A stretch of 64,000 nucleotides of DNA, taken from positions 131,284 to 195,283 of IMG/VR virus record IMGVR_UViG_3300042484_003148; one strand, written 5' to 3'. The stretch comes from a virus (taxonomy: Duplodnaviria > Heunggongvirae > Uroviricota > Caudoviricetes). Below the pieces are notes generated by a model. That model saw only the letters and a list, made by a program, of their open reading frames with translations, did not search any database and was not told the origin of the DNA. The position numbers and the translations under genes were made by a program. Positions within the stretch are counted from its first letter, which is position 1. Every line of letters starts with the position of its first letter. This document shows, piece after piece, positions 3,366 to 64,000 of the stretch.

Positions 3366-3571
3366 CACAACAACAGTTAGAAATCATTGATAGATTATAT
3401 TCGTTTTACGCTATCAACAAGGAAGAATATAACATTTTAGTAGGAAATACTAACCAAGATACTTGCGTTAAATGTAGATGCTCAAAATGCACCAAAAACG
3501 AAAGATATGAAATACCGTATTCTCTTTATTCCAAAGATGGTACTATCAACTATAGTAAACATGGTTGTTAA
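3362..3571 (+). CDS. small Cys-rich protein
   Basis: 69 aa; ATGA overlap with the upstream gene; contains CVKCRCSKC...HGC. Confidence 0.45.
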   Translation: MTQQQLEIIDRLYSFYAINKEEYNILVGNTNQDTCVKCRCSKCTKNERYEIPYSLYSKDGTINYSKHGC

Positions 3572-3583
3572 ACATTATATTAT

Positions 3584-3835
3584 TTATTTTAAATAAAAAA
3601 CTCTTCTTAAATTAATAGGAAGAGTTTTTTGTTTTAATGAGGTTATAAATTGCTCAAGTAAAATCTCAATATTAGTTTCATATTTATCACTAATCTTACC
3701 ACATGTATTACATTTTATTTTAACTAAACTTTGACTATTTTTATAATTTTCATGTACTAACGAATAATCAAACTTACCGATACCATGTATATATTCAGAT
3801 TCTTCAATAAATTGTTCAACAGGTATTGGTTTCAA
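3584..3835 (-). CDS. zinc-ribbon protein (HG-x-GK-x-DYS ... C-x2-CG motif), paralog of 5365..5550
   Basis: 83 aa with IHGIGKFDYSLVHENYKNSQSLVKIKCNTCG. The same motif occurs in the 5365..5550 ORF. The module resembles zinc ribbons seen in phage homing-endonuclease-like proteins, but that family assignment is uncertain. Confidence 0.45.
   Translation of the reverse strand: MKPIPVEQFIEESEYIHGIGKFDYSLVHENYKNSQSLVKIKCNTCGKISDKYETNIEILLEQFITSLKQKTLPINLRRVFYLK
3594..3632. terminator. bidirectional rho-independent terminator hairpin
   Basis: Stem AAAAAACTCTTC...GAAGAGTTTTTT between convergent genes. Confidence 0.6.
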
Positions 3836-3966
3836 AACATTACAGTTTAAAATTTCATAGTATTTTATACTATTACTCTTCTTTTGTGGACTTTGACCTC
3901 ACACTGGGTTAACTGCCAACCCTCTATCGGTTTCATGTTCCGTTTGGAACAATCCGCCCTTGCGTT
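3836..3966 (-). ncRNA. candidate omega/right-end guide RNA scaffold of the TnpB element
   Basis: A GC-rich, hairpin-rich stretch (GUUCCAAACGGAAC, GGGUUGGCAGUUAACCC on the minus strand) lies immediately 3' of the tnpB stop. This is where TnpB reRNAs are encoded. Its composition is sharply different from the flanking AT-rich DNA. Confidence 0.45.
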
Positions 3967-5268
3967 TTATATTATTATCGGTACTAATTTACAGCGACTG
4001 CTGTCTAAGAACCTACCGATACTTAACATATACTTTCTTAGTATATTATAACTACCATTCACATCTGAGTTAACTTTGATGTTGTTTTTACTAACGTACA
4101 AACCTCTTAGCTTACGACTTCCACTGAAACTGTAATTCTTAGCTTGGTTTTTATTATAAGTTGGTATCAAGTCATCATCAACAAAGCTCGCTTGTGATGT
4201 GTAACTTTCCTCTTGTTCCACAACAACGTTACCTATCAACTCACTTTTGTACTTTAACTGTTGAGTTAATTTAGTATAAGGTATCGAAACGAAGTTTTGG
4301 TTAACTTTCTTTGACATATTTACTTCGTCTTTCCAACCTTTGTTACAACCTACAACTATTGTACCAATATTATACTGTAAACATAGTTGCAATATTTTGT
4401 TTGTGTACTCATGAAACTCATGTTCAATTTTACAGTTACGTTTGTGAGTTAAAGTGTTAATCTTATTTGAGTTCTGTAAGATTTGAGGGTTTCCTTCTTT
4501 GTCTTTCAAACTAGAATGATTTGGTAGTTGCGACTGCAACTCTGCTCTGACTTTATTATAAAACTGATTTATTGATTTAACATGACCACCTTTAATTATA
4601 CGAGGCTGAAAGCCTTCTACATTTGATGTTATGGTCATTAAATTGTTAACTCCGTAATCAATACTTATAATATTATCTTTATTTAAGTTCATGTTCTTTT
4701 CTTCTACATCATAAACAACTTCAATTTTATATTTTTTATTTGACATTGGTACTAATCGTACCATTTTCAAAACACCGTTGTGTTTGTTAATGACAGGTAC
4801 TTCAATGTTAGTTCCACTAAGTTTAATAAAACCTTGTTTTAATTTAGTTTTAGATATTGCACCAAGTTCATACGTTACTACGTAACGACCTTTGGTTTTG
4901 TGCAAGTAGTTAGGTAACTTTGGTCTGCCTGTTAAACAGTCTTTATTACTTTTGTACTTTTTACAAAGAGCAAAGAAAGATTTAAAGTTTTTATCAACCA
5001 ACATAAGAGTTTGATTACTAACTTTACGTGGTAATTCACAATAATCAACATCTTTACTGTCAACAAATTGTCTATTAATAGTATTATAATTAAAATAATT
5101 TGCATGGTCAACCATGCCTTGTTCTTTTAATTTGGAAGTATTAATAAATTCTTGTCTTACAGTATAGAGAGCTTTATTATACAGATTTTTACTTTTAAAA
5201 CACAGAGAATCAATCTCTTCATAGAAGCGATGTGATTTATTAATTATGTGTTTTTCGGTATTGTACAT
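3967..5268 (-). CDS. tnpB: TnpB-like RNA-guided nuclease (IS605/IS607 OrfB family), zinc-finger-less variant
   Basis: 433 aa. RuvC-I ISIDYGVNN, TSQ motif, and RuvC-III NSDVNGSYNILRKY (equivalent to D-x-NAA-x-NI). All four zinc-finger cysteines after TSQ are replaced (SQASFVDDD...FSGSRKLRG). The canonical IxxEDL reads IVVGCNKGWKDE. About 90% identical to the partial ORF at 63102..64000. Confidence 0.8.
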   Translation of the reverse strand: MYNTEKHIINKSHRFYEEIDSLCFKSKNLYNKALYTVRQEFINTSKLKEQGMVDHANYFNYNTINRQFVDSKDVDYCELPRKVSNQTLMLVDKNFKSFFALCKKYKSNKDCLTGRPKLPNYLHKTKGRYVVTYELGAISKTKLKQGFIKLSGTNIEVPVINKHNGVLKMVRLVPMSNKKYKIEVVYDVEEKNMNLNKDNIISIDYGVNNLMTITSNVEGFQPRIIKGGHVKSINQFYNKVRAELQSQLPNHSSLKDKEGNPQILQNSNKINTLTHKRNCKIEHEFHEYTNKILQLCLQYNIGTIVVGCNKGWKDEVNMSKKVNQNFVSIPYTKLTQQLKYKSELIGNVVVEQEESYTSQASFVDDDLIPTYNKNQAKNYSFSGSRKLRGLYVSKNNIKVNSDVNGSYNILRKYMLSIGRFLDSSRCKLVPIII

Positions 5269-5364
5269 TAACAGTTATTATTTATTATAAATAGTTTGTT
5301 TTATAAAATAAATATGTTAAATTTACATAAAACTAACATAAAGTTCTATGTTAGATGGTTGCTT

Positions 5365-5550
5365 TTAAACACAACCTCTTCTTTCATTTAGATGTCTATA
5401 CGGCGTATTAAAAAATGTGGTTCCGCATTTATTACATTTAATTTCCACTTTTGTATCCACATTTTTGTAAACTACGTTACTATAATCATAACGTCCATCT
5501 CCATGTATACTCTTACCTTTTTCTATAAAATTTTTTAATTTGTCTTCCAT
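5365..5550 (-). CDS. zinc-ribbon protein paralog (HG-x-G-x-YDYS ... CNKCG)
   Basis: 61 aa with IHGDGRYDYSNVVYKNVDTKVEIKCNKCG; paralog of 3584..3835 on the other side of tnpB. Confidence 0.45.
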   Translation of the reverse strand: MEDKLKNFIEKGKSIHGDGRYDYSNVVYKNVDTKVEIKCNKCGTTFFNTPYRHLNERRGCV

Positions 5551-5611
5551 TTTATTTTAAATTAAAAAACCTGATATTAACTAAAATACCAGGTCACACT
5601 TGTTTAATGTT

Positions 5612-5758
5612 TTATTTTACTGAATCTTTAGCTAAAGAATCCACTTTAACTACTACCGAGTCAACCTTAGTTGAATCTACTGAATCAGTTTTTTTAGTTT
5701 CACCACAAGATAATAAAGCGAAACTTACACAGATAATTGGAACTAATAATTTTTTCAT
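5612..5758 (-). CDS. small putative lipoprotein (48 aa)
   Basis: MKKLLVPIICVSFALLSCGE: signal peptide plus lipobox, followed by Ser/Asp/Val repeats. Under 60 aa, so absent from the ORF track. Confidence 0.3.
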   Translation of the reverse strand: MKKLLVPIICVSFALLSCGETKKTDSVDSTKVDSVVVKVDSLAKDSVK

Positions 5759-9111: not shown

Positions 9112-9798
9112 TTATTTTATTAAAAAAGACTTATATTTATTTTCAATTTCTGATAATTGTCTTTTAACAACACTTTCATTAACATTTTTTAATTCATCAG
9201 AATCTATTGATTTATATAAATAAGCATCCGGTGTTGATGGTGATGAAACTAAATCCCAACCAATTAATTCAAAATCATTCTGAACAACTAAAACATCGTT
9301 TTGTTTTCTAACCGAACCTAAACCTCTAGATGAAATACCTAGTTTACATTTCTTTTTAAGTAAATCAGCTATATAATCAGCTTGACAACCTATTGTTCCG
9401 TCATTATCATATTTAATTGATGTTAATAGCTCGATAACACCCCATAATGTGTTTTGTGACCACCAAAAATCGACAACCAACAAACCTAAATCTTGACTCC
9501 TTAAAGAAATATCACTTCTATCAGGATGACAAACTTCACCAAAACTATTTCTATCTTTAACTAACTGAATATATTTTTGTAATTCTCTTTCTAAAATTTG
9601 TCTTGAGTAAATTCTTGAATTACGATTTCTCACTTCTGCTTTTTGCAAAATACATTCAATATAAGTTGATTTACTATCTCTAACTAAATTAGAAACTGAT
9701 TCATTTATATTACTAGAACTAGTTATAATTTTATTAGTATAACCTTCATGTTCAATTAATATCCCAGTACCAACTTCTCTAGCTTCTAAAATTTTCAT
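9112..9798 (-). CDS. putative prohead protease (gp21-like)
   Basis: 228 aa. Assigned by size and by synteny with the gp21-gp22-gp23 order. Catalytic residues could not be verified by eye. Confidence 0.35.
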   Translation of the reverse strand: MKILEAREVGTGILIEHEGYTNKIITSSSNINESVSNLVRDSKSTYIECILQKAEVRNRNSRIYSRQILERELQKYIQLVKDRNSFGEVCHPDRSDISLRSQDLGLLVVDFWWSQNTLWGVIELLTSIKYDNDGTIGCQADYIADLLKKKCKLGISSRGLGSVRKQNDVLVVQNDFELIGWDLVSSPSTPDAYLYKSIDSDELKNVNESVVKRQLSEIENKYKSFLIK

Positions 9799-15632: not shown

Positions 15633-18308
15633 TTAAACATTAGCAAAACTTGCACCTTGGTTTGAAATTATCATACTAACCCCGATATATTCCAAACTCT
15701 TTACAGGTTTAACATAAATATTAAAATACAACTCATTACGTTCTCTAGTTGAACTATCATTAATATCAGCAAATGTAATTTTAGCATCCAATAACCCTCT
15801 TTCTGACCTAACAGCATTAAGTATTGGATTAGCCTGGTCCAAGAACTGATTAATTACTGTATCATCATTAGGTTCAAACAACAAACCTCTTGCAATATTT
15901 GAGAATTGTCTACCTAAATACAAGAACAAACGTCTAACATTAATTCTATCTAAAGCAGATGGTTTAGTTGGTGATTTAAGAGTTTTATTACCAAACACAT
16001 CAATTACACCACCAAAATTAGCCACTGGGTTAATTGCTTGAGCGTATAAAACATCTCTTGCAGATTCTTTCAATTTAAATCTAACTTTATTAGCGTTCAA
16101 CAAACCTCTAGTTGTACCAGCAGTTGCAAACCAACTATAGAATTTATTATCAGTGAATGCGAATGCTCTAGCCATCTCTCCGGTTGGTGGAATGTAAACG
16201 TTAACATTATTATCTGTATCTAAAATCTGAATATGTGGTCCATAAGTACAAGCATAAGTGGTATCTAAATCAGCCGCTTCAATTAAACTAGCAATAGAAC
16301 TAGCATAAGTTTCAGAAGTTTCATTAGGTAAATCTGGTGAGTCCATAATATACAAGAAATCACCTCTTTCATTTTCAATTAAGTCAACAACTTCATTTAC
16401 TAATGTAAGGTTATCTGACCAGTTAAGTCCAGGTGTTGCAAACAAGTTAATAGGTGTTTCCTCAGCATTACTGAATGTTGCAATACCTTGTTCCCATGCT
16501 TGATAATCTGCACCTAAGAAATAACCACTACCACCTTTAGCATATCTAGGTGTAATAGTTCTTTGGTCTCTATATTCATCCCAACCATCAAAACCACCAT
16601 AAGCAGTTACAGTGAATTTTCTAGTGTTTTTATCGAAATATTTATTGTTAACATTTCTAACATCTGTAATAGTTTGTAATGTATCAGCACCTGTAACAAA
16701 TTGACCAATTGAATAAGTACCATCAGTATAAGTACCTGTTGCACCTGAATCAAAGTGGAAACCTTTTGTTTTATTTACACTAGCTGAAGCTAAATTACCA
16801 GAGAATTGGAAGAAATCAGAATTAAGACCAGAACCAACAGTAGTTGTACTATCATAAGCTCTTTCTGAAATACCCAAGAAAACACGTTTAACTTTATCAG
16901 AATCAGCGTAAGATGATTTATATAATAATGTTGGTGTTTGTCCTGTATTAGTTACACCATTTACATAACCTCTTAAATTATAACCTTCAAAACCGCCAGG
17001 TAAAGTTGTTTCATCAATATTATCATAATCAGCGAATTCTAAATAAACATAAGAAGATTGATTATCGTAATTTTCACCACCATCACCAATTCTTTTACCT
17101 ATAAAGTTAGTACTAGATTTTGATAAAGAACATCTAGTATATGATTCCAATACAGACATACTATCATCAGTATCATTAAAATCTCTAATAATTACATCAA
17201 ACTCACCTGTTTCTGGTGAAACATTAGCAATAGAAACTTTAACAAATGTATTAGCTGCATTACCATCTGAGAATAAAACAAACCTAAACAATCTATCAAC
17301 TTTATTTCCTTTTAGTAAAGAAACAATCCAAGGTGTCTCAGGTGTTTTGTAACCTGTATTAAATTCAGTTGTTTCAGTAAATAATGATAATGTAGGTGAA
17401 ACACCATACAATGCACCGTCATTATACAATTTTGAAATTAAAGCATCGTAAGATTTTTCAACAAAAATATCTGCTGTTTTATCTTTATGTTTAGTACCTA
17501 AAACTTTAGTAATATAAGATGAAGATTTTGGGTCAATAGATACTGTATAAGTATTAGTTGATGTACCTGATAATGTAAAGTTACTGTAAGGTGAACTATT
17601 TGCTACAGTTGAATCGCTAATAGTTAATCCTGAAATATTATAAATTAGTGTATCATTACTATAATAACCTCTACTTCTTAACAAACCAACAACCATACCT
17701 TCATAAGCAGCATAAGGTGTAGCTGTTTGAGTAGTTGCTGTATACGATACTGTACCTGTCAAACCATTAATTGTAGAAACAGCAGTTTGAGGGATAATAG
17801 TTACATAATTTCTGTTAAATGTAGCACCAGGTGTTGTAGCTCTAGTAAACGAAGTATAACCTGTTTGAGTAACACCTGTAGTTGTAATAGTTATACCACT
17901 AAACACACCACCTGTATAAGTAGTTGACCCGGTTGTAGTACTACCATTAGCGATAGTTGCAGGGTCATAGTTAGCTAAAACTTTAATAGCGTAACCATTT
18001 CCAGAAGCGTAACCGCTTTTACCCAAAATTCTAGTAACAAATAAATTATTACCTTCACTTAAAAAAGAATCTGCATAGTAAGGTAATGTATATTTAAGGT
18101 TTCCACCTATTTTTTCAATACTTTTACCACCAAAAACTTTTTTAAACTGGGTTTTATTTGTTATTTGCTGAGGTTCAAAAGCTGGACCTTGCGTTGTTTC
18201 ACCCAATAAACCTAATGCAGTAACACCCAAAGCAACACCACCATTATATTGGCTGTTATCAATCTCCCTTACTTTAACGGTTGGTGATACGAAAATAAAA
18301 TCACTCAT
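15633..18308 (-). CDS. tail sheath protein (contractile tail)
   Basis: 891 aa. The N-terminus (FIFVSPTVKVREIDNSQYNGGVALGVTALGLLGETTQGPAFEPQQITNKTQFKKVFGG) follows the conserved sheath signature (SPG.ELKE...GTAAL.GKF.WGPAF....T....F...FG, as in T4 gp18). Confidence 0.7.
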   Translation of the reverse strand: MSDFIFVSPTVKVREIDNSQYNGGVALGVTALGLLGETTQGPAFEPQQITNKTQFKKVFGGKSIEKIGGNLKYTLPYYADSFLSEGNNLFVTRILGKSGYASGNGYAIKVLANYDPATIANGSTTTGSTTYTGGVFSGITITTTGVTQTGYTSFTRATTPGATFNRNYVTIIPQTAVSTINGLTGTVSYTATTQTATPYAAYEGMVVGLLRSRGYYSNDTLIYNISGLTISDSTVANSSPYSNFTLSGTSTNTYTVSIDPKSSSYITKVLGTKHKDKTADIFVEKSYDALISKLYNDGALYGVSPTLSLFTETTEFNTGYKTPETPWIVSLLKGNKVDRLFRFVLFSDGNAANTFVKVSIANVSPETGEFDVIIRDFNDTDDSMSVLESYTRCSLSKSSTNFIGKRIGDGGENYDNQSSYVYLEFADYDNIDETTLPGGFEGYNLRGYVNGVTNTGQTPTLLYKSSYADSDKVKRVFLGISERAYDSTTTVGSGLNSDFFQFSGNLASASVNKTKGFHFDSGATGTYTDGTYSIGQFVTGADTLQTITDVRNVNNKYFDKNTRKFTVTAYGGFDGWDEYRDQRTITPRYAKGGSGYFLGADYQAWEQGIATFSNAEETPINLFATPGLNWSDNLTLVNEVVDLIENERGDFLYIMDSPDLPNETSETYASSIASLIEAADLDTTYACTYGPHIQILDTDNNVNVYIPPTGEMARAFAFTDNKFYSWFATAGTTRGLLNANKVRFKLKESARDVLYAQAINPVANFGGVIDVFGNKTLKSPTKPSALDRINVRRLFLYLGRQFSNIARGLLFEPNDDTVINQFLDQANPILNAVRSERGLLDAKITFADINDSSTRERNELYFNIYVKPVKSLEYIGVSMIISNQGASFANV

Positions 18309-45156: not shown

Positions 45157-47949
45157 ATGGCTAAAAAGTATTTTACTCCAGAACAAGTTAATCATATTAT
45201 TGATTGTTACGAAAATAAAAATTATTCTATTAAAAATATAGCTGTGGAATACAGATGTGACCCTGGTACTATTACTAGGGTCTTAAATGAAAATGACGTA
45301 AAAATTAAAGATTATAGGATACCATTTACGCCTGAACAAGAAGAGTATATTAAAATACAATATAACAATGGTAAAAGTACAGTCAAATTAGGTGAAGAAT
45401 TTGGTTGTTCAGCTAAAGCTATTGGGTCTTTCTTGAAAAGAAATGAAATAGTTGTAACTAAATCAACATTATTGTGTGATGAAGATATATCTAACATTAT
45501 TTTAGATTACATTGAAAATTCACTTACTTTAGAAGTTATTTCCGCAAAATATAATATTGCTAAAAGAAGACTTTCAGATATTTTACAAGAAAAGGGTATT
45601 GAAACAAAAAATAAATTATATAAAACATTTTCAGAAGAAGATGTTAAAGAGATTATCAAAATGTACACTATCGGATTTATTAGTTTAAAGAAGATAGGTG
45701 AAAAATATAATTGCGATAAAAGTGTTATTAGTAATCTTCTAAAGAAAAACAAGATTGAAATATATGATAGAAACCTTAAACACCATTTAATTGACGATGA
45801 AACCGTTTGTAATGAACATATTAACGGTTTATCAATAAATGATTTAAGTAAAAAATATGGTTGTTCTGACACAGTTATTACTAGAATTTTACAAAAAAAT
45901 AACATTGAAACTATTAATCATAGATTTTATAATTTTTCTAAAGAACAAGTTGATGAATTAATTAGGTTATACACAACTGAACTTAAACCAACATCTGAGT
46001 TATCTGTTTTATTTGACTGTACTGTTGATAGAGTTAATAAGATTTTACATGATAATAATGTATCTTTAATTAAACAAGCAGCAAATAAAATAACTTTCTC
46101 TACTGAAGATATTGATAAAATAAAAAGTTTACACAAAACAATGTCTAACAAAGAAATAGGTAGTTTATTTAATTGTAGTCCTGATACAATCAGACGACTT
46201 CTAAATAAGGAAGGTGTTAATACAAGTAAAAATTATCAAACCGAACAAAGTGTCATTGATAATATTGTTATTGATTATTCAATAAATAAACTTAGTACTA
46301 GAACATTATCTGAAAAATATAATTTCTCTCAAACGTATATTAGTAAGGTTTTAAAAGAAAATAATGTTGAAGCTAATTTAAGATATATAATTTCAGTTTC
46401 TTCTGATGAAGAGAAAGAAATTATTAGAAAACATGTTGAAGATAGAAAAACTTTAACTGAGATTAGTAATGAATATGGCATTAATATTAAATTTTTAAGT
46501 GAAAATATCTTTAAAAAGAATAATATTAATATTCAACTTAAAAAACCTGCTCAAGAGAAATTAAATATTGAACAAATATTAACCGAACTAAAAACAGGTA
46601 AAGGTATTTCAACTATCGCTAGAGAGAATAATTGTTCTTTCGGTACTATAAACTCAATAGCTATTAGTAATGGAATTAAAACAACAAATGAATTAACAGA
46701 TGTTTTTACTAATGAGTTGATTCTTAAAAAAGAAAATAGAAGATTTGTATTTGATAATTATCAAACTAAATTTGTTATTGAAAAATACACTAATGGTGCA
46801 ACAATAAAACAAATTAGTAATTTCCTTAAAGTTGACTATACTACAATCCACAGGGTACTTGTAAATAACAATATAAAGGTTCAACATAAATTATTAAAAA
46901 CATTTACTGAACAAGTTGAAGAAGATATCTGTTCAGAATACGTTGATAATAACAAAACTATGTTAGAAATTGGCAAACTATACAATGTGTCACAATCAGT
47001 TATTAGAAAAGTTCTAATAAAACACAACGTAGAAATTACCAATAATTATTATTCATCGGTTAACGAAAATAAAATTCGTTATATTCTTGGTTATTTTATT
47101 CCAACTATTCACAAGAAATCAGATTGTGATAATATTTTGCAAGCTAAGGAAATAGACATTATTGATTATACCAAAAAGATTGGTATAGAATATAACGGAA
47201 CATATTTTCATAGAAGCGAGAATAAATCCGAAACTTATCATATTGATAAAACAAAAGAAGCTTCGTCTGCCGGTTATAAACTGTATCATGTTTTTGATGA
47301 TGAATATGTACATGATTCTGTTAAAATAATAAACCGACTTTTGAAGTTATTTAAAACAGGTTTGTATATTACTGAAGATACTTATGATGAACTAGAAGAA
47401 TGTTTCTTCAGCAATACTAGTTACGATGAAATTTACATTGAAGGTTTAGTTAAAACCAAACTACCACTTTCTGAATGTACGATAACTAAAGTTGAACCAA
47501 CTAAACAATATTATCAGTTTTACACTGCGTTTGGTTTATTGAAATCTTACGATGAAACTATTAATAATGTCAATTACAATATTGAACATAAAGAATACGG
47601 TTTAATTGGTTATATTAGTATTAATAAAACAACCAATACTGTTGAAAATTTATTCATTGAAGATGATTATGTAATTACAGGTTTAAACAAAAGAATCTTT
47701 GATTTATATTTAAATGAATTTAAACCAACTGAGTTATTTATTGAAATTGACAGAAGATACGCTTCAGAGCCAGAGAATTTATCTGGTTTATCATTTGAGT
47801 TAATTAACGAAACAGAACCTAGAATTCATTATTTTAAGAATTATTCAAGATATATCGCAACTAATGAAACTAATTTAGAATTGGATTCTGATGTTGAGTG
47901 GAACATTATTCACGATTGTGGGACTTGGAAATATAAATTGATTAAATAA
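45157..47949 (+). CDS. modular endonuclease: 12 tandem helix-turn-helix repeats plus C-terminal DUF559/Vsr-like PD-(D/E)XK nuclease domain
   Basis: 930 aa. Twelve repeats of about 50 aa with consensus F(S/T)xE(Q/D)(V/I)xxIIxxY....S...I...Y.CS..TI.R.L..NNI. C-terminus DIIDYTKKIGIEYNGTYFH...YKLYHVFDDEYV aligns to the DUF559/Vsr-like motif (DF....IE.DG..H...L...G..V.RF...EV). Confidence 0.7.
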   Translation: MAKKYFTPEQVNHIIDCYENKNYSIKNIAVEYRCDPGTITRVLNENDVKIKDYRIPFTPEQEEYIKIQYNNGKSTVKLGEEFGCSAKAIGSFLKRNEIVVTKSTLLCDEDISNIILDYIENSLTLEVISAKYNIAKRRLSDILQEKGIETKNKLYKTFSEEDVKEIIKMYTIGFISLKKIGEKYNCDKSVISNLLKKNKIEIYDRNLKHHLIDDETVCNEHINGLSINDLSKKYGCSDTVITRILQKNNIETINHRFYNFSKEQVDELIRLYTTELKPTSELSVLFDCTVDRVNKILHDNNVSLIKQAANKITFSTEDIDKIKSLHKTMSNKEIGSLFNCSPDTIRRLLNKEGVNTSKNYQTEQSVIDNIVIDYSINKLSTRTLSEKYNFSQTYISKVLKENNVEANLRYIISVSSDEEKEIIRKHVEDRKTLTEISNEYGINIKFLSENIFKKNNINIQLKKPAQEKLNIEQILTELKTGKGISTIARENNCSFGTINSIAISNGIKTTNELTDVFTNELILKKENRRFVFDNYQTKFVIEKYTNGATIKQISNFLKVDYTTIHRVLVNNNIKVQHKLLKTFTEQVEEDICSEYVDNNKTMLEIGKLYNVSQSVIRKVLIKHNVEITNNYYSSVNENKIRYILGYFIPTIHKKSDCDNILQAKEIDIIDYTKKIGIEYNGTYFHRSENKSETYHIDKTKEASSAGYKLYHVFDDEYVHDSVKIINRLLKLFKTGLYITEDTYDELEECFFSNTSYDEIYIEGLVKTKLPLSECTITKVEPTKQYYQFYTAFGLLKSYDETINNVNYNIEHKEYGLIGYISINKTTNTVENLFIEDDYVITGLNKRIFDLYLNEFKPTELFIEIDRRYASEPENLSGLSFELINETEPRIHYFKNYSRYIATNETNLELDSDVEWNIIHDCGTWKYKLIK

Positions 47950-48003: not shown

Positions 48004-50955
48004 ATGTTTAATAACAAACCTAAAGAAATTGAATTGATAAATGAAGGTTTAATTCCAAGTATATTATCACATCAAGAAATGTTAAAAATGGGTGCGACAG
48101 GTGCTTTATCAAGAGCATTTGAAAGATATATTCTTTTAGATAAAATAGAAGGATTAGACCCAGAACCTTCTACATGGGGTGATGGTTATGAATTTAAAAA
48201 AGGTGAAGAAATTAAAAGTTCAATCGAAGTTATTTACGATAAAGACCGTGATATTTATTTTTTACAAAACGGTAATCATCGCATTAAACAAGCTAGAGTT
48301 AACGGTGATAAATATATACGTGCATTTATACAACCAGATAATGGTAAAATAGGTAATGATGCAAAATTATCTATAAGTGAATCATTAAATGAAACACGAC
48401 TTAACGAAGGTTACGAAGAAATTAAAGATATTAATGAATTAGCTAATGATATTATATATTCATTAAGTTATAAATTAAATGCAACAAAAACACCTAGTAA
48501 AAGTAACCCAGGTACATATTTATATGAATTTAATAAAGCTATTACTACAATAGAAGAATCTATTAATTTTCAAAAAACTGTTAAATATCAAAATTTTACA
48601 TCTAATAATTTTAAAAACTTTTGTGATAAGTTTAAAAATATTTCAATTACTTTTGAAAAAGGTTCAAAGGATAATGAAGGTAGATACAATCTTAATACTA
48701 AGAGTATTATATTATTTATTACAGATGAAAAAGAACTAGAAATTAATCAAGATTTAAATATTGATAATAAAGTTACAACTACTAAAGATATATATTTTAA
48801 AATTCATGGTAAGTTCATTTCTATATTAGAACATGAATTACAACATGTTTATGATGACTATATTTCAAAAGGTCAAGCTTTTAATGTTAAACAAACTAAA
48901 CATGAATACGATTATACTCAATTTGATGATGCTAAAGAATATTTAAATTTACCTTATGAAGTTAATGCTAGATTTACTCAAGCTATTAATAAAATTAATT
49001 TCTTAGAATTAGTGGATTTTACTGATGATAATAAACAAATTGAAAGACCTTATGAATTTAAAAAAGTATTACGTGATTTTTTATATCAATTTCCACATAA
49101 ACATTTGTTAAATCAAAATGTTAAAAATACTGTTATCAAAAGGTTATATAATATTTACAACAAAGCTATTGAAAAAGCTAAAACTGATGATAAAATTGAG
49201 TTAATTAAAGAAAATAACTTAGATTACACTACAACTGATGATAAAAATAATGTTTTAATTTATGTTGATGGTAATAAAATATTAAACAAATTAAAAACTG
49301 ATTCACCAGAGTTTGATATTACTAATAAAGATAACCAAATTGGTAATAGAGTTGAGAAAGCTAAAGAGTTTATTAGTAATTACAAAACCGACAAAAGACC
49401 AATTCACCCTACGACAGGTGAAAGAATAGATTATTTAGGTAAACATAGTTTTGAACCTTCAGTTGCATCTTTTGATATGAATGGTAAGTTAGGTTTTACT
49501 GACGGTAGACATAGAATATTAGCAGCAATTGAATCTGGAATAAACAAAGTAGGTGTATTAGTACCTAAAAACCAAGTAGATATGTTTAAAGATTTAATAA
49601 ACGAATCCAACTCACAACTTGAAGACACGTTTATTAAAATAAATTCACCAAATATTAAATCACACATTGATTCTTTAATTAATAAATACAGTGAGAAATC
49701 TGAGGTTATGAATTATATTAAACATGCTGATGAAGAATCAAATAAACCTGAGTATTCTATTTCATATACATATTGTAAAAAACTAATTAGTTTAGCTACT
49801 AATTTAAAAGACAAACATGGTCTTGATAAAGATAAATTTGAATTATATGGTGGTTTTCCTCTTATAAATTATTTATCAAAAGAACTAAATAATAAACGTG
49901 AAATAATATCACGTTCTAAAAAAATAAAAACTATGGCAGGATTTAATCACCAATATAACAAAGAACATGAAAGAGTTGGTTTAATTAAGAATGGTAAAAA
50001 ATATGTTGATAGAAATTTAAGAGAATGTATTGAATTAATTAAAGAATCTGAAGTTAAGGTAAATAAAGAAGCTTCATGTATTGTTTTATTAAATGAAGAC
50101 AAAAAAATATTATTACTTAAACGTAGTGATAAAACCCCTTGGGAACCTGGTAAATGGTCTTTAGTTGGTGGAAAGATTGATTTAGGTGAAAACGCTAAAG
50201 AAGCTGCTATTAGAGAATGTGGTGAGGAAACAGGTTTAGGTATCAAAGGAAATAAATTAATTTATTGTTTCACAATGAAAGAGGATGACTATGAAGTTAA
50301 TTTCTTTATTGGTGTTTCTGAAGGTAGTGATGTTAGATTAAATGGTGAACATACTGAATATAAATGGGTTAACCCAAATGAAATACCTGAACTAGAAACA
50401 GTACCTAATTTATTAGGTGAAATTAAAAAGTGTTTTGAAACGTTAAATGAAAATAAAGAAGAAACGGTTATTAACGAAGAATTCAATAAAACTGAATATT
50501 TAAAATGGAAACGTAATAATGTAACATATAGAGGAATTAAAGAATTAGGTCAAGATAACAATGTTTATGGTTCTTTTGGTAAAGGTTTATATACTGTACC
50601 AGCTAGCAATAAAGTTATGGCTAAAACTTTCGGAAAACTTTATTTTGTTGTAAATGGTATACCAAAAAATCCTAAAGTTGTTAATTCATTAAATGATGCT
50701 GAAATGTTCAGATATAATCTTATTAATGAATATTGTAAACAACATAATAACATTAAATCAGACGGATTTTTTGATGATAATACATCAATGGAAGCTGAAA
50801 TGTTAAAGCTTGGTTATGATGGTTTTGTTATTAAAGGTAGAGAAATGGTTAATTATAAACCTGAAAATGATAAGGTTAAATATTTTTCAAATGAAAACCA
50901 ATTAATTCAATATTATGAAAACTTTATCGAAAACAATAATTCTGTTATTAACTAA
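48004..50955 (+). CDS. large multidomain protein: two ParB-like nuclease domains, HExxH motif, NUDIX hydrolase domain, uncharacterised C-terminal domain
   Basis: 983 aa. ParB-like YFLQNGNHRIKQARVNGDKYIRAFI and LGFTDGRHRILAAIESGINKVGVLV. HELQH motif. Perfect Nudix box GGKIDLGENAKEAAIRECGEETGL (G-x5-E-x7-REUxEExGU). Confidence 0.65.
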   Translation: MFNNKPKEIELINEGLIPSILSHQEMLKMGATGALSRAFERYILLDKIEGLDPEPSTWGDGYEFKKGEEIKSSIEVIYDKDRDIYFLQNGNHRIKQARVNGDKYIRAFIQPDNGKIGNDAKLSISESLNETRLNEGYEEIKDINELANDIIYSLSYKLNATKTPSKSNPGTYLYEFNKAITTIEESINFQKTVKYQNFTSNNFKNFCDKFKNISITFEKGSKDNEGRYNLNTKSIILFITDEKELEINQDLNIDNKVTTTKDIYFKIHGKFISILEHELQHVYDDYISKGQAFNVKQTKHEYDYTQFDDAKEYLNLPYEVNARFTQAINKINFLELVDFTDDNKQIERPYEFKKVLRDFLYQFPHKHLLNQNVKNTVIKRLYNIYNKAIEKAKTDDKIELIKENNLDYTTTDDKNNVLIYVDGNKILNKLKTDSPEFDITNKDNQIGNRVEKAKEFISNYKTDKRPIHPTTGERIDYLGKHSFEPSVASFDMNGKLGFTDGRHRILAAIESGINKVGVLVPKNQVDMFKDLINESNSQLEDTFIKINSPNIKSHIDSLINKYSEKSEVMNYIKHADEESNKPEYSISYTYCKKLISLATNLKDKHGLDKDKFELYGGFPLINYLSKELNNKREIISRSKKIKTMAGFNHQYNKEHERVGLIKNGKKYVDRNLRECIELIKESEVKVNKEASCIVLLNEDKKILLLKRSDKTPWEPGKWSLVGGKIDLGENAKEAAIRECGEETGLGIKGNKLIYCFTMKEDDYEVNFFIGVSEGSDVRLNGEHTEYKWVNPNEIPELETVPNLLGEIKKCFETLNENKEETVINEEFNKTEYLKWKRNNVTYRGIKELGQDNNVYGSFGKGLYTVPASNKVMAKTFGKLYFVVNGIPKNPKVVNSLNDAEMFRYNLINEYCKQHNNIKSDGFFDDNTSMEAEMLKLGYDGFVIKGREMVNYKPENDKVKYFSNENQLIQYYENFIENNNSVIN

Positions 50956-61042: not shown

Positions 61043-61192
61043 ATGAAGAAAATACAATTCACCGAAGAAGAACTTTTACTATTATTAAACGATGTAGTAA
61101 AAGAACAACAAAATAAAGTAGAAATTTGGACCAACAATCTTTCGTTAAAAGAAGTTGTTGAAAAAGTTGGTTTTAAAATAGTTAAACAATGA
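61043..61192 (+). CDS. micro-ORF A (49 aa)
   Basis: MKKIQFTEEELLLLLNDVVKEQQNK...; ATGA overlap with the next ORF. Confidence 0.3.
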   Translation: MKKIQFTEEELLLLLNDVVKEQQNKVEIWTNNLSLKEVVEKVGFKIVKQ

Positions 61193-61314
61193 AACTAGAA
61201 ATAGCAAATTATAGTGATAGAAGATTTATTACAAGTAAATCGTTTGAAGTAATAAATAAGGAAATCCCTGTTAAAGAATATTGGTTTAACAACTTAAGAA
61301 TATATGAAAGATGA
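61189..61314 (+). CDS. micro-ORF B (41 aa), paralog of C
   Basis: MKLEIANYSDRRF...EYWFNNLRIYER; ATGA overlaps. Confidence 0.35.
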   Translation: MKLEIANYSDRRFITSKSFEVINKEIPVKEYWFNNLRIYER

Positions 61315-61436
61315 AATTAAATATCGATAACTTATATACAATTTCTTTTGAAGAAAGTAATGCGTATTTCTTTCTTATACAATTAACCCCAGCAAAGAAA
61401 CATTTACTAAACAATCTAAGGATTTATAAAAGATGA
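61311..61436 (+). CDS. micro-ORF C (41 aa), paralog of B
   Basis: MKLNIDNLYTISFEE...KHLLNNLRIYKR; ATGA overlaps. Confidence 0.35.
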   Translation: MKLNIDNLYTISFEESNAYFFLIQLTPAKKHLLNNLRIYKR

Positions 61437-61585
61437 AACTAATAGTTGCTTCAAATCCATATATCTATTTTAATTCAACTGATAGTTTCAGAGAATTATT
61501 TAATTTTATTACTAACGGAGATAAAATTAAGTTAGATAATTGGATGAATAAAAATAAACCTGATTTTATAGTAATGAAAAGATAA
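61433..61585 (+). CDS. micro-ORF D (50 aa)
   Basis: MKLIVASNPYIYFNSTDSFRELF... Confidence 0.3.
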   Translation: MKLIVASNPYIYFNSTDSFRELFNFITNGDKIKLDNWMNKNKPDFIVMKR

Positions 61586-61930: not shown

Positions 61931-62461
61931 ATGGAATTAAAAATCAACAACAAATATATTTTGCTTGAAAAGAATAATGATTATGTTTTCAAAGCATTAA
62001 TTAATGATGTTACTAAAACATCTATTCAAATTACTAACTTAGATAACGGAAGTGGTCCTGTTAGAACATTATTAACAGCGTTTCATGAACAACTTGATGT
62101 TATTGAGTTTATTGATGATAAACAAATAGAATCTCAAATAACAAATTCTATAAATAAATTAAATAAACTAGATAACATAGTAACTAAAGAACTTGTCTCT
62201 TTACCGACTAAGGTAATAAAAGATAATTTAGAAATAGAATCAGCAATGATGAATGTTTTTCTAGAAAATCAAAAACCTTTAGAACCGGATTTTCAAGATG
62301 CACTTAATGAGTTAACTAAAGAATCCGGAAAGGAAATACCAATTCGTTTTATTTCACCTCAAATTAATGTTCGTGAAATTGATAATATTATTTCTGATGA
62401 ACCAGATTACATTCAACCAACCAAACCTTTAACAAACAATTGGTGTTTTAAAAGCAAGTAA
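61931..62461 (+). CDS. hypothetical protein
   Basis: 176-aa ORF. Confidence 0.45.
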   Translation: MELKINNKYILLEKNNDYVFKALINDVTKTSIQITNLDNGSGPVRTLLTAFHEQLDVIEFIDDKQIESQITNSINKLNKLDNIVTKELVSLPTKVIKDNLEIESAMMNVFLENQKPLEPDFQDALNELTKESGKEIPIRFISPQINVREIDNIISDEPDYIQPTKPLTNNWCFKSK

Positions 62462-62521
62462 ATAATCTTTAATTTTATGGAAGTTTTATTTAATTTCTAC
62501 TATTTAAAATAAATAACTACA

Positions 62522-63094
62522 ATGTACTACAAACTATCTGATTACGCAAAAAAATTTAACATTACCTACCGTGCAGCGTGGAATCGCTTCAAAGCTGGTA
62601 AAATTAAAGATGCTTTTGTTGATGATACAAACCATGTTTGTATCCCTGTTCATAAAATGGACTCAATGTCTAAAAACATGGTAATTTATTCCAGAGTTTC
62701 TTCTAATGAAATGAAAGAAAACTTAGAACGTCAATCTGAAAGATTGACCAACTACGCTATCTCTAACGGTTATACTATCATTAAAGTTGTTAAAGAAGTA
62801 GGCTCTGGTCTGAACGACCACAGACCTAAACTTATGAAAGTTTTAACAGACAACAACTTTGATTTTATTTTAGTTGAAAATAAAGATAGATTAACCCGTT
62901 TCGGGTTTAATTATCTTGAAACTCTTTTAAAAACTCAAAACAAACAAATTATCGTTGTTAACAATACAAATGATGATAAAACAGATATCATTAATGATTT
63001 AGTTTCTATTATCTACTCATTCTCTGCCCGTATCTACGGGTTAAGAAGAGCTAAAAACAAACAAAAAGAAATACTTAATATTATAAATAATTAA
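62522..63094 (+). CDS. tnpA: IS607-family serine recombinase transposase TnpA
   Basis: 190 aa. N-terminal MerR-like HTH (MYYKLSDYAKKFNITYRAAWNRFKAGKI), then the serine-recombinase catalytic region VIYSRVSS...KVVKEVGSGLNDHRPKL...FDFILVENKDRLTRFGF. Confidence 0.75.
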   Translation: MYYKLSDYAKKFNITYRAAWNRFKAGKIKDAFVDDTNHVCIPVHKMDSMSKNMVIYSRVSSNEMKENLERQSERLTNYAISNGYTIIKVVKEVGSGLNDHRPKLMKVLTDNNFDFILVENKDRLTRFGFNYLETLLKTQNKQIIVVNNTNDDKTDIINDLVSIIYSFSARIYGLRRAKNKQKEILNIINN

Positions 63095-63101
63095 TTCTTT
63101 A

Positions 63102-64000
63102 ATGTACGTTACTGAAAAACATATAATCAACAAATTACATCGCTTCTACGAAGAGATTGATTCTCTGTGTTTTAAAAGTAAAAACTTGTATAATAAAGCT
63201 CTTTATACTGTAAGACAAGAATTTATTAATACTTCTAAATTAAAAGAACAAGGCATGGTTGACCATGCTAATTATTTTAATTATTATGATATTAATAGAC
63301 AATTCATTGACAGTAAAGATGTTGATTATTATAATTTACCTGTTAAAATTAGTAATCAAACCCTTATGTTGGTTGATAAGAACTTTAAATCTTTCTTTGC
63401 TTTATGTAAAAAGTACAAAAGCAACAAAAATAATTTAACAGGTAGACCAAAGTTACCTAACTACTTGCACAAAACCAAGGGTCGTTACGTAGTAACGTAT
63501 GAACTTGGTGCAATATCTAGCAAGTTTTTAAAACAAAATGTAATTAAACTAAGTGGGACTAACATTGAAGTACCCGTCATTAACAAACACAACGGTGTTT
63601 TAAAAATGGTACGATTAGTACCCATGTCAAATAAAAAATATAAAATTGAAGTTGTTTATGATGTAGAAGAAAAGAACATGAATTTAAATAAAGACAATAT
63701 AATAAGTATTGATTACGGAGTTAATAATTTAATGACTATAACATCAAATGTAGAAGGCTTTCAGCCTCGTATAATTAAAGGTGGTCATGTTAAATCAATA
63801 AATCAGTTTTATAATAAAGTCAAAAGTGAGTTGCAGTCGCAACTACCAAACCATTCTAGTTTGAAAGACAAAGAAGGTAAACCTCAAATCTTACAGAACT
63901 CTAATAAGATTAACACTTTAACACATAAGCGTAACTGTAAGATTGAACATGAGTTTCATGAGTACACAAACAAAATATTGCAACTGTGTTTACAGTATAA
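63102..64000 (+). CDS. tnpB: TnpB-like RNA-guided nuclease, second copy (partial; runs off window end)
   Basis: ATG at 63102, open to the end of the window. About 90% amino-acid identity to the 3967..5268 protein, including ISIDYGVNN (RuvC-I). Absent from the ORF track because no stop lies in the window. Confidence 0.8.
   Translation, partial: MYVTEKHIINKLHRFYEEIDSLCFKSKNLYNKALYTVRQEFINTSKLKEQGMVDHANYFNYYDINRQFIDSKDVDYYNLPVKISNQTLMLVDKNFKSFFALCKKYKSNKNNLTGRPKLPNYLHKTKGRYVVTYELGAISSKFLKQNVIKLSGTNIEVPVINKHNGVLKMVRLVPMSNKKYKIEVVYDVEEKNMNLNKDNIISIDYGVNNLMTITSNVEGFQPRIIKGGHVKSINQFYNKVKSELQSQLPNHSSLKDKEGKPQILQNSNKINTLTHKRNCKIEHEFHEYTNKILQLCLQY

What the first reader, a model, noticed from the sequence alone, without database searches (positions are those of the whole stretch)
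62462..64000. IS607-type element (serine recombinase TnpA plus TnpB) whose tnpA sits behind a phage late-promoter-like motif; second, diverged, inverted tnpB copy
tnpA (MerR-like HTH plus YSRVSS serine recombinase) and tnpB are adjacent. The sequence upstream of tnpA (CTATTTAAAATAAATAACTAC-ATG) is nearly identical to the motif upstream of the sheath, scaffold and capsid genes (CTATTTAAAATAAAACTAA). This suggests the IS is transcribed with the phage late genes. The two tnpB copies are about 90% identical at the protein level, inverted, and about 58 kb apart. That implies old duplication and divergence rather than an assembly artifact. They also provide substrates for recombinational inversion of most of this window.
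Basis: partly seen in the sequence, partly recalled or inferred. Interest (0 to 1): 0.6.

Follow-up and report, generated by a model that had tools for sequence, protein, structure and literature searches.

The report
Phage-adapted IS607 transposon with TnpB
A large T4-like phage carries a small jumping gene (IS607 type, with an RNA-guided nuclease) and a stripped-down second copy. Each copy carries, inside its own left end, the same short motif that sits in front of the phage's head and tail genes, so this is a known kind of element that looks adapted to life in a phage.

Summary
tnpA (62522-63094) is a full-length IS607-type serine transposase with the catalytic serine intact. tnpB follows 7 nt later and is cut by the window end. 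A second tnpB (3967-5268, minus strand) is 91.6% identical in DNA and 92.8% in protein, with different flanks.

Corrections:
- Copy A has no tnpA. It is a 1.53-kb tnpB-only derivative with its own left and right ends.
- Thirteen independent insertions in related phage contigs fix the ends: ...KGTGT|left end ... right end ACTGT|flank. Copy B therefore starts near 62447, not 62462.
- The motif CTATTTAWAATAAA has 13 hits against 1.06 expected and precedes capsid, scaffold and sheath genes. It lies inside the left end and travels with the element to different sites and phages.
- The TnpB belongs to a known clade with the RuvC-II glutamate replaced by glycine, an alternative glutamate, and no zinc finger.
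- The right end encodes a structured guide-RNA scaffold supported by compensatory changes.
- The ends are GT-type, not the GG usual for IS607.

Inversion between the copies is untested. A mosaic variant suggests the copies exchange sequence. Verdict: a real, probably active IS607-family element, a phage-adapted variant of a known kind. Interest is moderate.

The parts
62442..62446 (+). Left junction GGTGT of copy B. Putative TnpA target core (GT) and TnpB TAM.
   Evidence: KGTGT immediately precedes the left end in 13 independent insertions. GTGT occurs only about 5 times per kb on both strands combined.
62447..62521 (+). Left end (LE) of copy B, 75 nt. It supplies the stop codon (62459-62461) of the upstream 176-aa ORF.
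   Evidence: It is homologous to the LE of L041 and of the L009 mini-element, and 74% identical over 61 nt to the LE of copy A.
62500..62513 (+). Late-promoter-like motif CTATTTAAAATAAA inside the LE, 8 nt before the tnpA ATG.
62522..63094 (+). tnpA: IS607-type serine transposase, 190 aa, presumed nucleophile S60 in the YSRVSS motif.
63102..64000 (+). tnpB of copy B: first 299 of 434 codons, cut by the window end. The right end would fall at about window coordinate 64530.
   Evidence: (the window is 100% identical to L009).
5369..5373 (-). Left junction TGTGT of copy A.
5269..5368 (-). Left end of copy A, 100 nt. It supplies the stop codon (5365-5367) of the upstream 61-aa DUF723 ORF.
   Evidence: It is homologous to the LEs of L011, L013 and L025, which lie at other insertion sites.
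5281..5294 (-). Motif CTATTTATAATAAA inside the LE of copy A, 12 nt before the tnpB ATG.
3967..5268 (-). tnpB of copy A, 433 aa. D204, E353/E354 and D402 are conserved, G307 replaces the canonical RuvC-II glutamate, and there are no zinc-finger cysteines.
3842..4056 (-). Predicted omega-RNA (reRNA) scaffold: the 3' end of tnpB plus 125 nt of non-coding right end, finishing in ...AACTGT.
   Evidence: All elements diverge from one another immediately after ACTGT. Covariation supports the fold.
3822..3841 (-). Right flank of copy A (AATGTTTTGAAACCAATACC), the predicted guide portion of the omega-RNA.
   Evidence: Inferred from TnpB biology. It has no other TAM-adjacent match in the window.

Best explanation
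The window holds two members of a phage-resident IS607-family lineage.

Copy B (from about 62447 past the window end, about 2.08 kb) is the autonomous form: left end, tnpA (serine transposase), tnpB (RNA-guided nuclease), then a right end that encodes the omega-RNA scaffold. Copy A (5368-3842, minus strand, 1.53 kb) is a non-autonomous form: left end, tnpB, right end.

Shown:
- the family membership of both proteins;
- conserved catalytic residues and purifying selection on tnpB;
- exact element ends (KGTGT|LE ... ACTGT|flank);
- a structured, covarying RNA at the right end;
- a motif, shared with the phage structural genes, that is part of the left end.

Inferred:
- TnpA excises and inserts the element as a double-stranded circle by crossover at a GT dinucleotide, where most IS607 elements use GG. 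It could also move copy A and the protein-less mini-elements in trans.
- The left-end motif is a phage late promoter. It would drive one transcript (tnpA-)tnpB-omegaRNA late in infection, when many recombining genome copies are present.
- TnpB with its omega-RNA cuts element-free sites (TAM about KGTGT followed by the right-flank sequence). Recombinational repair from an occupied genome then restores or spreads the element, including into co-infecting relatives. This would resemble the late-expressed homing endonucleases of T4.
For: Proteins:
- TnpA scores 169 bits on NF033518 (cutoff 110), and its serine motif aligns with structures 6dgc and 6dgb.
- TnpB scores 141 bits on guided_TnpB. The AF2 model has pLDDT 82.9, and Foldseek matches Cas12f, ISDra2 TnpB (8h1j, target TM-score 0.70), ISFba1 TnpB and mimivirus Fanzor2.
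- D204, E353/E354 and D402 are invariant across 21 homologues down to 46% identity, while the canonical glutamate is Gly in all of them. This is the rearranged RuvC-II type described in PMC10691335.
- dN/dS between the copies is 0.16.

Ends:
- Thirteen insertions with unrelated flanks share GTGT on the left and ACTGT on the right.

RNA:
- 96.4% of cells pair, against 35-43% when the partners are slid. One helix has compensatory changes in 5 of 6 pairs.

Motif:
- It is enriched 12-fold and lies upstream of the scaffold and sheath genes, about 70 nt upstream of the head maturation protease gene, and, in a one-base-shorter form, upstream of the capsid gene.
- It is present in the left end at seven different insertion sites or elements.
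- Sigma-70-type sites are at chance level in both copies.

Other:
- Non-autonomous relatives exist, including protein-less mini-elements. One lies 3.5 kb from copy B on the 308-kb contig.
- The IS607 precedent is a strict GG core, a TGGG target equal to the TAM, and TnpB rescuing the excised element (PMC10690162; PMC10711439).
Against: - There is no direct evidence of transcription, transposition or cleavage.
- No empty site was found in public data, so the crossover dinucleotide and the TAM are read from junctions only.
- The motif is not the T4 consensus TATAAATA. It lies very close to the start codons (0-31 nt), which would give very short leaders.
- The omega-RNA matches no Rfam family, including the IS607-associated RAGATH-18.
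- The zinc finger is missing, and the alternative glutamate is assigned by alignment and literature analogy, not by measured geometry.
Confidence: 0.72

Rival explanations
1. The shared motif is not a promoter. It would be a TnpA-binding or left-end architectural sequence, or a general leader or translation-initiation signal of this AT-rich phage, so the element is not tied to late transcription.
For: The motif ends 0-31 nt from start codons, which is unusually close for a -10-type element. The genome is 26.8% GC, so A/T-rich motifs are easy to find. The motif differs from the T4 consensus TATAAATA.
Against: Enrichment is 13 hits against 1.06 expected with dinucleotide-preserving shuffles. It is found before only a subset of genes, mostly structural ones or the first gene of a block. 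It is absent from the roughly 10 kb of small same-strand genes upstream of tnpA. It also occurs before non-IS genes in related phages (L013 3362-3375, L012 12237-12250), so it is not specific to TnpA.
Confidence: 0.15
2. The tnpB copies are domesticated or immobile. The phage would keep them for its own benefit, for example as an RNA-guided weapon against competing phages or as a regulator, rather than as part of an active transposon.
For: Most copies in related phages lack tnpA (L011, L013, L014, L015, L025), and one has a truncated tnpA (L012). tnpB is under purifying selection. Exapted TnpBs are known (PMC10691335; the TldR preprint appeared in a literature listing, and was not read).
Against: Left and right ends are intact and precisely conserved at 13 unrelated sites. 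Protein-less mini-elements exist, and an intact tnpA sits in the same genome. All of this indicates ongoing mobility. The catalytic D/E/D residues are conserved, unlike nuclease-dead repressors. Each guide equals the element's own flank, as expected for a selfish element; no TAM-adjacent second match was found, and only this 64-kb window was scanned.
Confidence: 0.12
3. The two copies did not arise by duplication within this genome. They would be two older sub-lineages, a tnpA-bearing one and a tnpB-only one, that arrived separately and whose tnpB bodies were later partly homogenised by gene conversion.
For: The left ends fall into two types that cut across the TnpB tree. A, L025, L011 and L013 form one type; B, L041 and the L009 mini-element form the other. 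Yet TnpB A and B are 93% identical to each other and only 79-83% identical to the TnpBs of those partners. L025 tnpB matches A over codons 121-240 and matches B over codons 241-434.
Against: A and B are each other's closest full-length relatives apart from L025. The two left-end types still share 74% identity over 61 nt. L025 is a 1.7-kb metagenome contig and could be a chimeric assembly.
Confidence: 0.4
4. The second copy is an assembly or terminal-redundancy artefact.
For: None found. An IMG/VR contig does begin inside the right end (L017), which shows that repeats trouble assemblers here.
Against: There are 109 nucleotide differences over 433 codons, different gene content (one copy has tnpA, the other does not) and different flanks. 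Both copies were recovered on several contigs from different samples.
Confidence: 0.01

Closest known systems
IS607 family insertion sequences (IS607 of H. pylori, IS1535, ISC1926, ISXfa1, and the C. botulinum CboIStron IS607 part)
   Same: TnpA is a serine recombinase with an N-terminal DNA-binding part and a C-terminal catalytic domain. tnpB lies immediately downstream on the same strand. There are no long terminal inverted repeats and no target duplication beyond a shared dinucleotide. The guide RNA is encoded at the right end, and tnpA-less derivatives are common.
   Different: The ends and left junction are GT-type (KGTGT ... ACTGT) rather than the GG core with TGGG or GGG TAM reported for IS607 elements. 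The right-end RNA matches no Rfam family, including RAGATH-18. The element lives in a lytic-type T4-like phage and carries that phage's structural-gene motif in its left end.
RuvC-II-rearranged TnpB clades (RIIr groups of Altae-Tran et al. 2023, PMC10691335) and Fanzor2
   Same: The canonical RuvC-II glutamate is replaced by glycine, and a conserved alternative glutamate sits just before the YTS motif. These clades are associated with serine recombinases, and some branches are enriched in viruses. The fold matches TnpB, Cas12f and Fanzor2.
   Different: This clade also lacks all four zinc-finger cysteines. The paper notes zinc-finger loss only for 'some large branches', and I could not assign the protein to a named branch.
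Free-standing and intron-borne homing endonuclease genes of T4-like phages (seg, mob, I-TevI)
   Same: Small selfish nuclease genes inserted between or into phage genes, and proposed to spread between co-infecting genomes by cleavage and recombinational repair (review PMC13565253). Late-promoter expression of I-TevI is from my own knowledge.
   Different: Target recognition here would be by a guide RNA plus a TAM rather than by protein. The element also has a true transposase and defined transposon ends.
PATE-like and other non-autonomous IS200/IS605/IS607 derivatives
   Same: Mini-elements keep the left end and the guide-RNA-bearing right end but no protein gene (L009 15372-14942; L034, L036 and L037).
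   Different: They were found here in phage or metagenome contigs of this GT-ended IS607 subfamily and were not characterised further.

Membership tests
IS607 family | TnpA is a serine recombinase of the IS607 type, with an N-terminal HTH, a C-terminal catalytic domain and a catalytic serine | tested here: met
   NF033518 scores 169 bits against a cutoff of 110, covering profile positions 2-187 of 187. The catalytic domain aligns to 6dgc and 6dgb at E=1.9e-31 and 2.5e-27 with YSRVSS over VIYARVSS. The HTH is supported only by the full-length profile match; Pfam gave no separate MerR hit.
IS607 family | tnpB lies directly downstream of tnpA on the same strand within one element | tested here: met
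   The gap is 7 nt (63095-63101). L041 has the same layout.
IS607 family | No terminal inverted repeats and no target-site duplication; the ends recombine at a short shared dinucleotide | tested here: met
   Thirteen junction pairs share only GT/TGT between the left junction (GTGT|) and the right end (ACTGT|). No duplication of flank sequence was seen.
IS607 family | Ends terminate in GG with a G-rich target or TAM (true of most members, not all) | tested here: not met
   The ends are ...CTGT and the left junction is KGTGT in every element examined. The literature norm is GG.
IS607 family | Transposition through a circular double-stranded intermediate made by TnpA | not testable with these tools
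   Requires an excision or circle-junction assay, or reads spanning RE-LE joints.
TnpB / OMEGA RNA-guided nucleases | TnpB fold with a RuvC catalytic triad | tested here: met
   guided_TnpB scores 141 bits against a cutoff of 100. Foldseek hits TnpB and Cas12f at probability 1.00. D204 and D402 are invariant. The canonical glutamate is Gly307, but E353/E354 are invariant, which is the known rearranged type. The geometry of the alternative glutamate was not measured.
TnpB / OMEGA RNA-guided nucleases | A structured omega-RNA or reRNA overlaps the 3' end of tnpB and stops at the right end, followed by flank-derived guide sequence | tested here: met
   The conserved right end finishes at ACTGT in 17 sequences. 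96.4% of cells are paired against 35-43% in slid controls. Compensatory changes were found in 6 pairs of the tested right-end structure (5 of the 6 pairs of one helix) and, on a second alignment reaching into the coding 3' end, in 11 of 45 predicted pairs. Expression and processing were not tested.
TnpB / OMEGA RNA-guided nucleases | A TAM lies next to the left end and matches the transposase target | tested here: inconclusive
   KGTGT is conserved at all left junctions. Without an empty site or a cleavage assay, it cannot be split into element, crossover core and TAM.
TnpB / OMEGA RNA-guided nucleases | C4 zinc finger between RuvC-II and RuvC-III | tested here: not met
   There are no Cys or His at the expected positions in any of 21 aligned homologues. 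This loss is reported for some large TnpB branches, so it does not exclude membership.
IStron (group I intron fused to an IS605/IS607 element) | A group I intron at the 5' end of the element | tested here: not met
   No Rfam hit at gathering threshold in the whole window. The permissive scan (E up to 10), run over 3300-5700, which holds copy A, gave only four sub-threshold hits to unrelated families. The left ends are only 75-100 nt.
Nuclease-dead TnpB derivatives (TldR and similar) | Loss of RuvC catalytic residues or C-terminal truncation, fixed next to a regulated gene | tested here: not met
   The catalytic D, alternative E and D are invariant and the protein is full length. The copies lie at many unrelated sites with transposon ends.
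T4-type late promoter | A single -10-like element TATAAATA with no -35, upstream of late (structural) genes | tested here: inconclusive
   The motif precedes the capsid, scaffold and sheath genes and lies about 70 nt upstream of the protease gene. It is a single A/T-rich block. Its sequence (CTATTTAWAATAAA) is not the T4 consensus. Dependence on a gp55-like factor and the timing of expression were not tested.

The most novel reading that the evidence does not exclude
This would be a lineage of IS607 elements living permanently in large T4-like phages. It would have taken up the phage's late promoter and would spread mainly as tnpB-plus-guide-RNA units acting as RNA-guided homing endonucleases. 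Late in a mixed infection, TnpB would cut element-free relatives at KGTGT-plus-flank sites. The recombination-driven replication of the phage would then copy the element, and neighbouring markers, into them. TnpA would be needed only for occasional jumps to new sites.
Probability: 0.3. Interest if true: 0.7.

Novelty: new variant of a known kind. Interest (0 to 1): 0.45.

Why it matters
IS607/TnpB elements are known in bacteria, archaea, eukaryotes and viruses, and TnpB-driven homing has been shown in bacteria. What is uncommon here is an insertion sequence that carries the structural-gene motif of its lytic phage inside its own end, and keeps it at different sites and in different phages. That points to long residence in, and adaptation to, a phage transcription programme.

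It gives a testable natural case for RNA-guided homing between co-infecting phages, the guide-RNA counterpart of the T4 seg and mob genes. It also supplies a compact, zinc-finger-less TnpB with a rearranged active site, an apparently non-GG (GT-type) TAM and a defined guide scaffold, which may interest genome-editing work.

For genome analysis, the copies are real repeats. They break assemblies, and they coincide with a breakpoint between two otherwise identical phage contigs.

Tried and rejected
- **Rfam.** The whole window at gathering threshold, and 3300-5700 at E up to 10, gave no guide-RNA, RAGATH-18 or group I intron match. The IStron idea was dropped.
- **Source genome in public scans.** An exact 41-mer from copy B was not found in IMG/VR. 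The left flank of copy B was not found in the metagenome collection. The right flank of copy A was not found in IMG/VR. No empty site was recovered, so the pre-insertion sequence is not known.
- **TnpA back-translation scan of IMG/VR.** No relatives were found.
- **Sigma-70 promoter scan.** Hits were at chance level in both copies. One conserved TTAACT-17-TATAAT inside the 3' end of tnpB was noted but given no weight.
- **Is the DUF723 gene split in frame by copy A?** The answer depends on where the crossover dinucleotide is placed (in frame if GTT belongs to the element, out of frame if GT is shared). It is left open.
- **The 308,574-bp and 265,309-bp contigs.** After a homology search, the place on the 308-kb contig was not displayed. 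This is unresolved.
- **Guides hitting elsewhere in the window.** Only the self sites match.
- **Direct phmmer against PDB with TnpB.** This gave only weak Cas12f hits. The fold search was needed to confirm membership.
Full report
**Context.** The window is 26.8% GC. It encodes T4-like structural proteins: a major head protein at 5857-7560(-), a head maturation protease at 9112-9798(-) and a tail sheath at 15633-18308(-). The capsid protein is about 35% identical to those of Flavobacterium phage 'immuto', an uncultured megaphage and Microcystis phage Mel-JY01, and 28% to that of Rhodothermus phage RM378. The last 10.9 kb of the window is 100% identical to part of a 308,574-bp JGI metagenome contig (L009). 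The same genes also lie on a 265,309-bp contig from another sample. The source is therefore a large, uncultured, distant T4-like phage.

**Checking the observation.** The ORF at 62522-63094 (+), 190 aa, matches Pfam Resolvase (E=4e-18). It also matches the NCBIfam equivalog 'IS607 family transposase' over its full length (169 bits against a cutoff of 110).
- Its catalytic domain aligns with the solved IS607-family TnpA domains 6dgc and 6dgb (E=1.9e-31 and 2.5e-27). YSRVSS lies over VIYARVSS, so the nucleophile serine (S60) is present.
- Seven nucleotides later, at 63102, an ORF starts that matches OrfB_IS605 and runs off the window. On L009 it is 434 aa (P0001).
- A second tnpB lies at 3967-5268 (-), 433 aa. 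It matches OrfB_IS605 plus the Cas12f1-like TNB domain, and guided_TnpB at 141 bits against a cutoff of 100.
- Over 433 aligned codons the copies differ at 109 nucleotides: 91.6% DNA identity and 92.8% protein identity. dN is 0.048 and dS is 0.29, so both are under purifying selection.
- They are inverted and 57.8 kb apart. Their flanks are unrelated, and both are found on several assemblies. The artefact explanation is excluded.

**The motif.** CTATTTAAAATAAA with up to one mismatch occurs 13 times against 1.06 expected; no dinucleotide-preserving shuffle reached 13.
- Ten or eleven of the 13 sit 8-31 nt upstream of an ORF start in the correct orientation. These include the 468-aa acidic protein next to the capsid gene (a probable scaffold) and the sheath. 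A one-base-shorter form precedes the capsid gene.
- One exact copy is at 62500-62513, 8 nt before tnpA.
- Sigma-70-type sites are at chance level in both elements.

**Element boundaries.** I fetched relatives of TnpB and TnpA with their flanks.
- All sequences stay alignable for about 100-125 nt past the tnpB stop. They then diverge from one another immediately after a conserved ...AACTGT.
- On the left, homology among the tnpB-only elements (window copy A, L011, L013, L025) runs about 100 nt upstream of the tnpB ATG. Among the tnpA-bearing or B-type elements (copy B, L041, a mini-element on L009) it runs about 75-85 nt upstream of the tnpA ATG (or of the point where tnpA would begin).
- In every case homology stops just after GTGT.
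- Thirteen insertions with unrelated flanks therefore read ...KGTGT|LE ... RE-ACTGT|flank. GTGT occurs only about 5 times per kb on both strands combined in this genome, so this is not chance.
- In window coordinates, copy B begins near 62447 (GGTGT at 62442-62446) and would end near 64530. Copy A runs from 5368 to 3842 on the minus strand.
- In both copies the upstream phage ORF ends on a stop codon supplied by the left end (62459-61 and 5367-65), as expected for insertions into or at the end of coding sequence.

**The motif belongs to the element.** It lies inside the left end of copy A, copy B, L011, L013, L025, L041 and the L009 mini-element. Each sits at an unrelated site, and several are in other phages. 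Related phages use the same motif before ordinary genes (L013 3362-3375, L012 12237-12250). In the window, the roughly 10 kb of small same-strand genes upstream of tnpA has no other hit at up to one mismatch. So the insertion sequence carries a copy of the phage's structural-gene motif as its own upstream signal. That it is a late promoter is inferred from the class of genes it precedes. It is not the T4 consensus TATAAATA, and it sits very close to start codons.

**The nuclease.** In an alignment of 21 homologues down to 46% identity, D204 (IDYGVNN), E353/E354 (QEESYTS) and D402 (NSDVNGSYNI) are invariant.
- The position of the canonical RuvC-II glutamate is Gly in all of them (IVVGCNKGWK).
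- The four zinc-finger cysteines are absent throughout.
- This matches the 'rearranged RuvC-II' clades of Altae-Tran et al. There, Glu-to-Gly is proposed to be compensated by an alternative glutamate. Zinc-finger loss is noted in some large branches, and some rearranged branches are enriched in viruses (PMC10691335).
- An AlphaFold model (pLDDT 82.9) matches Cas12f, ISDra2 TnpB (8h1j, target TM-score 0.70), ISFba1 TnpB and mimivirus Fanzor2.
- More than 7,000 database proteins match at E<=1e-3. This is a large existing clade, not an oddity.

**The guide RNA.** The 3' end of tnpB plus the non-coding right end folds into conserved helices.
- On eight sequences, 11 of 45 predicted pairs show compensatory changes, including pairs inside the coding region.
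- On 17 sequences with a structure I specified, 96.4% of cells pair against 35-43% when the partners are slid. One helix has double changes in 5 of 6 pairs and is 100% paired.
- This is the expected anatomy of an omega-RNA whose scaffold ends at the right end and whose guide is the flank.
- No Rfam family matches it.

**Comparison with IS607 as described.** Published IS607 elements recombine at a GG dinucleotide. Their targets and TAMs are G-rich: TGGG for the C. botulinum element, GGG for ISXfa1, and 'most terminate in GG'. Here the shared core is GT (TGT) and the left-junction consensus is KGTGT. A more distant element with a 391-aa TnpB in another phage contig also reads GTGTT ... ATCTGT (L042). 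This looks like a GT-ended subfamily, which fits very AT-rich phage genomes. Which of the five bases are crossover core, TAM or element cannot be settled without an empty site. None was found.

**Derivatives and exchange.**
- Of the tnpB-bearing relatives whose upstream region is available, five lack tnpA and one keeps only the last 84 codons of tnpA (L012).
- Protein-less mini-elements (left end, motif, about 130 nt of spacer, guide scaffold, right end) occur in other contigs (L034, L036/L038, L037). One lies 3.5 kb downstream of copy B on the 308-kb contig, in convergent orientation (L009 15372-14942).
- These are what a trans-acting TnpA would be expected to mobilise.
- TnpB proteins A, B and L025 are 93-96% identical to one another and 79-83% identical to those of L011, L013, L012 and L041. 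The left-end types group A with L011 and L013, and B with L041.
- L025 tnpB is identical to A over codons 121-240 and identical to B over codons 241-434. It has an A-type left and right end and the right flank that copy B has in L010.
- Unless L025 is a chimeric assembly, the copies exchange sequence.
- Inversion of the intervening 58 kb could not be tested. An exchange within the tnpB bodies would leave both right-end junctions unchanged, so the available assemblies say nothing about it.

**An unresolved observation next to the element.** The 308-kb contig (L009) and three other assemblies (L010, L017 and the 265-kb contig) are identical through copy B. They become unrelated exactly after ACTGT.
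- L010 also differs from L009 at two bases in the last 20 nt of the right end, where it equals the A and L025 type.
- A gene of the L010-type flank is also somewhere on the 308-kb contig, but its position was not shown.
- The right end of copy B ends at position 265,454 of the 308-kb contig, close to the length of the other contig (265,309).
- This could mean a wrap-around assembly or a 43-kb segment bounded by element copies. I could not decide between them.

**Mechanism, with status.**
- Shown: family membership of both proteins, conserved active-site residues, selection, exact ends, the covarying right-end RNA, and the motif lying inside the left end.
- Inferred from IS607 and TnpB biology: TnpA excises the element as a circle and inserts it at GT sites. 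One late transcript from the left-end motif provides TnpA, TnpB and, by processing, the omega-RNA. TnpB cuts KGTGT-plus-flank sites that lack the element, and recombinational repair restores or spreads it.
- In a T4-like phage, with many recombining genome copies late in infection and frequent co-infection, this would act like the seg and mob homing endonucleases. That last step is a hypothesis. I give it about 0.3.

**Verdict.** The finding is real and mostly correctly read. It is an IS607-family element together with a non-autonomous sibling. It is a new variant of a known kind: GT-type ends, a TnpB without a zinc finger and with a rearranged RuvC site, a guide RNA not represented in Rfam, and a phage structural-gene motif built into the left end. 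Interest is moderate at 0.45.

Noticed in passing
L009 14942-15372 (minus strand); outside the window, about 3.5 kb beyond copy B on the 308-kb contig: A third, protein-less mini-element. It has a B-type left end with CTATTTAAAATAAA, about 200 nt of spacer with hairpins, the guide-RNA scaffold and a right end finishing in ACTGT. It is convergent with copy B.
   Followed up: partly
L009 11429/11430 versus L010 1497/1498 (also L017 and the 265-kb contig): Two otherwise identical phage assemblies become unrelated exactly at the right end of copy B. L010 also carries two A-type bases in the last 20 nt of the right end. The right end lies at 265,454 on the 308,574-bp contig, close to the 265,309-bp length of the other contig. 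This could be a wrap-around assembly or an indel mediated by the element; it is unresolved.
   Followed up: partly
L025 1-1699: A tnpB-only element whose tnpB is a mosaic: codons 121-240 match copy A and codons 241-434 match copy B. It is inserted at the 3' end of an HNH endonuclease gene and is followed by the same right flank that copy B has in L010. It is either a real recombinant or a chimeric short contig.
   Followed up: partly
L034 about 20-350, L036 about 430-811, L037 (minus strand) ending at 12051: Mini-elements of 330-380 bp from the 70%-identity sub-lineage (the L014/L015 type). They have a left end, the guide-RNA right end and no tnpB, and lie at three different sites.
   Followed up: no
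window 5365-5550 (-) and 3584-3835 (-): Copy A sits between two small ORFs that both carry the DUF723-type 'IHGxGxYDYS...KCxxCG' repeat typical of homing-endonuclease accessory domains. Whether they were once a single gene depends on where the crossover dinucleotide is placed.
   Followed up: partly
window 45157-47949 (+): A 930-aa protein made of many HNH-endonuclease-associated and DNA-binding repeat modules, with hits in 22 PHROG families. It is an unusually large homing-endonuclease-like gene lying just before a gene that carries the motif.
   Followed up: no
window 48004-50955 (+): A 983-aa protein directly behind the motif, with a Nudix hydrolase domain (residues about 680-840) and a weak portal-like hit. 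This is an odd combination for a gene in the structural block.
   Followed up: no
window 61043-61585 (+); also L009 12.2-16.4 kb: Arrays of tiny paralogous ORFs (41-50 aa, starting MKL..., two of them ending ...NNLRIY(E/K)R) just upstream of copy B. Fragments of them recur in the L009-type flank.
   Followed up: no
window 63443-63460 and 4927-4910 versus the L010 flank: The first bases of the L010-type right flank (TATACCAAAGTTACCT) share a 13-nt exact match (ACCAAAGTTACCT) with an internal tnpB segment. This may be chance or microhomology.
   Followed up: no
window 4045-4073 (-) and L009 11196-11224 (+): A TTAACT-17-TATAAT sigma-70-like site is conserved in both copies inside the 3' end of tnpB, about 90 nt before the stop. 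It could be an internal promoter for the guide RNA, but such matches are at chance level in this AT-rich DNA.
   Followed up: no
L012 5747-6001: A related element keeps only the last 84 codons of tnpA in front of an intact tnpB. This is a 5'-truncated, presumably immobile copy.
   Followed up: partly
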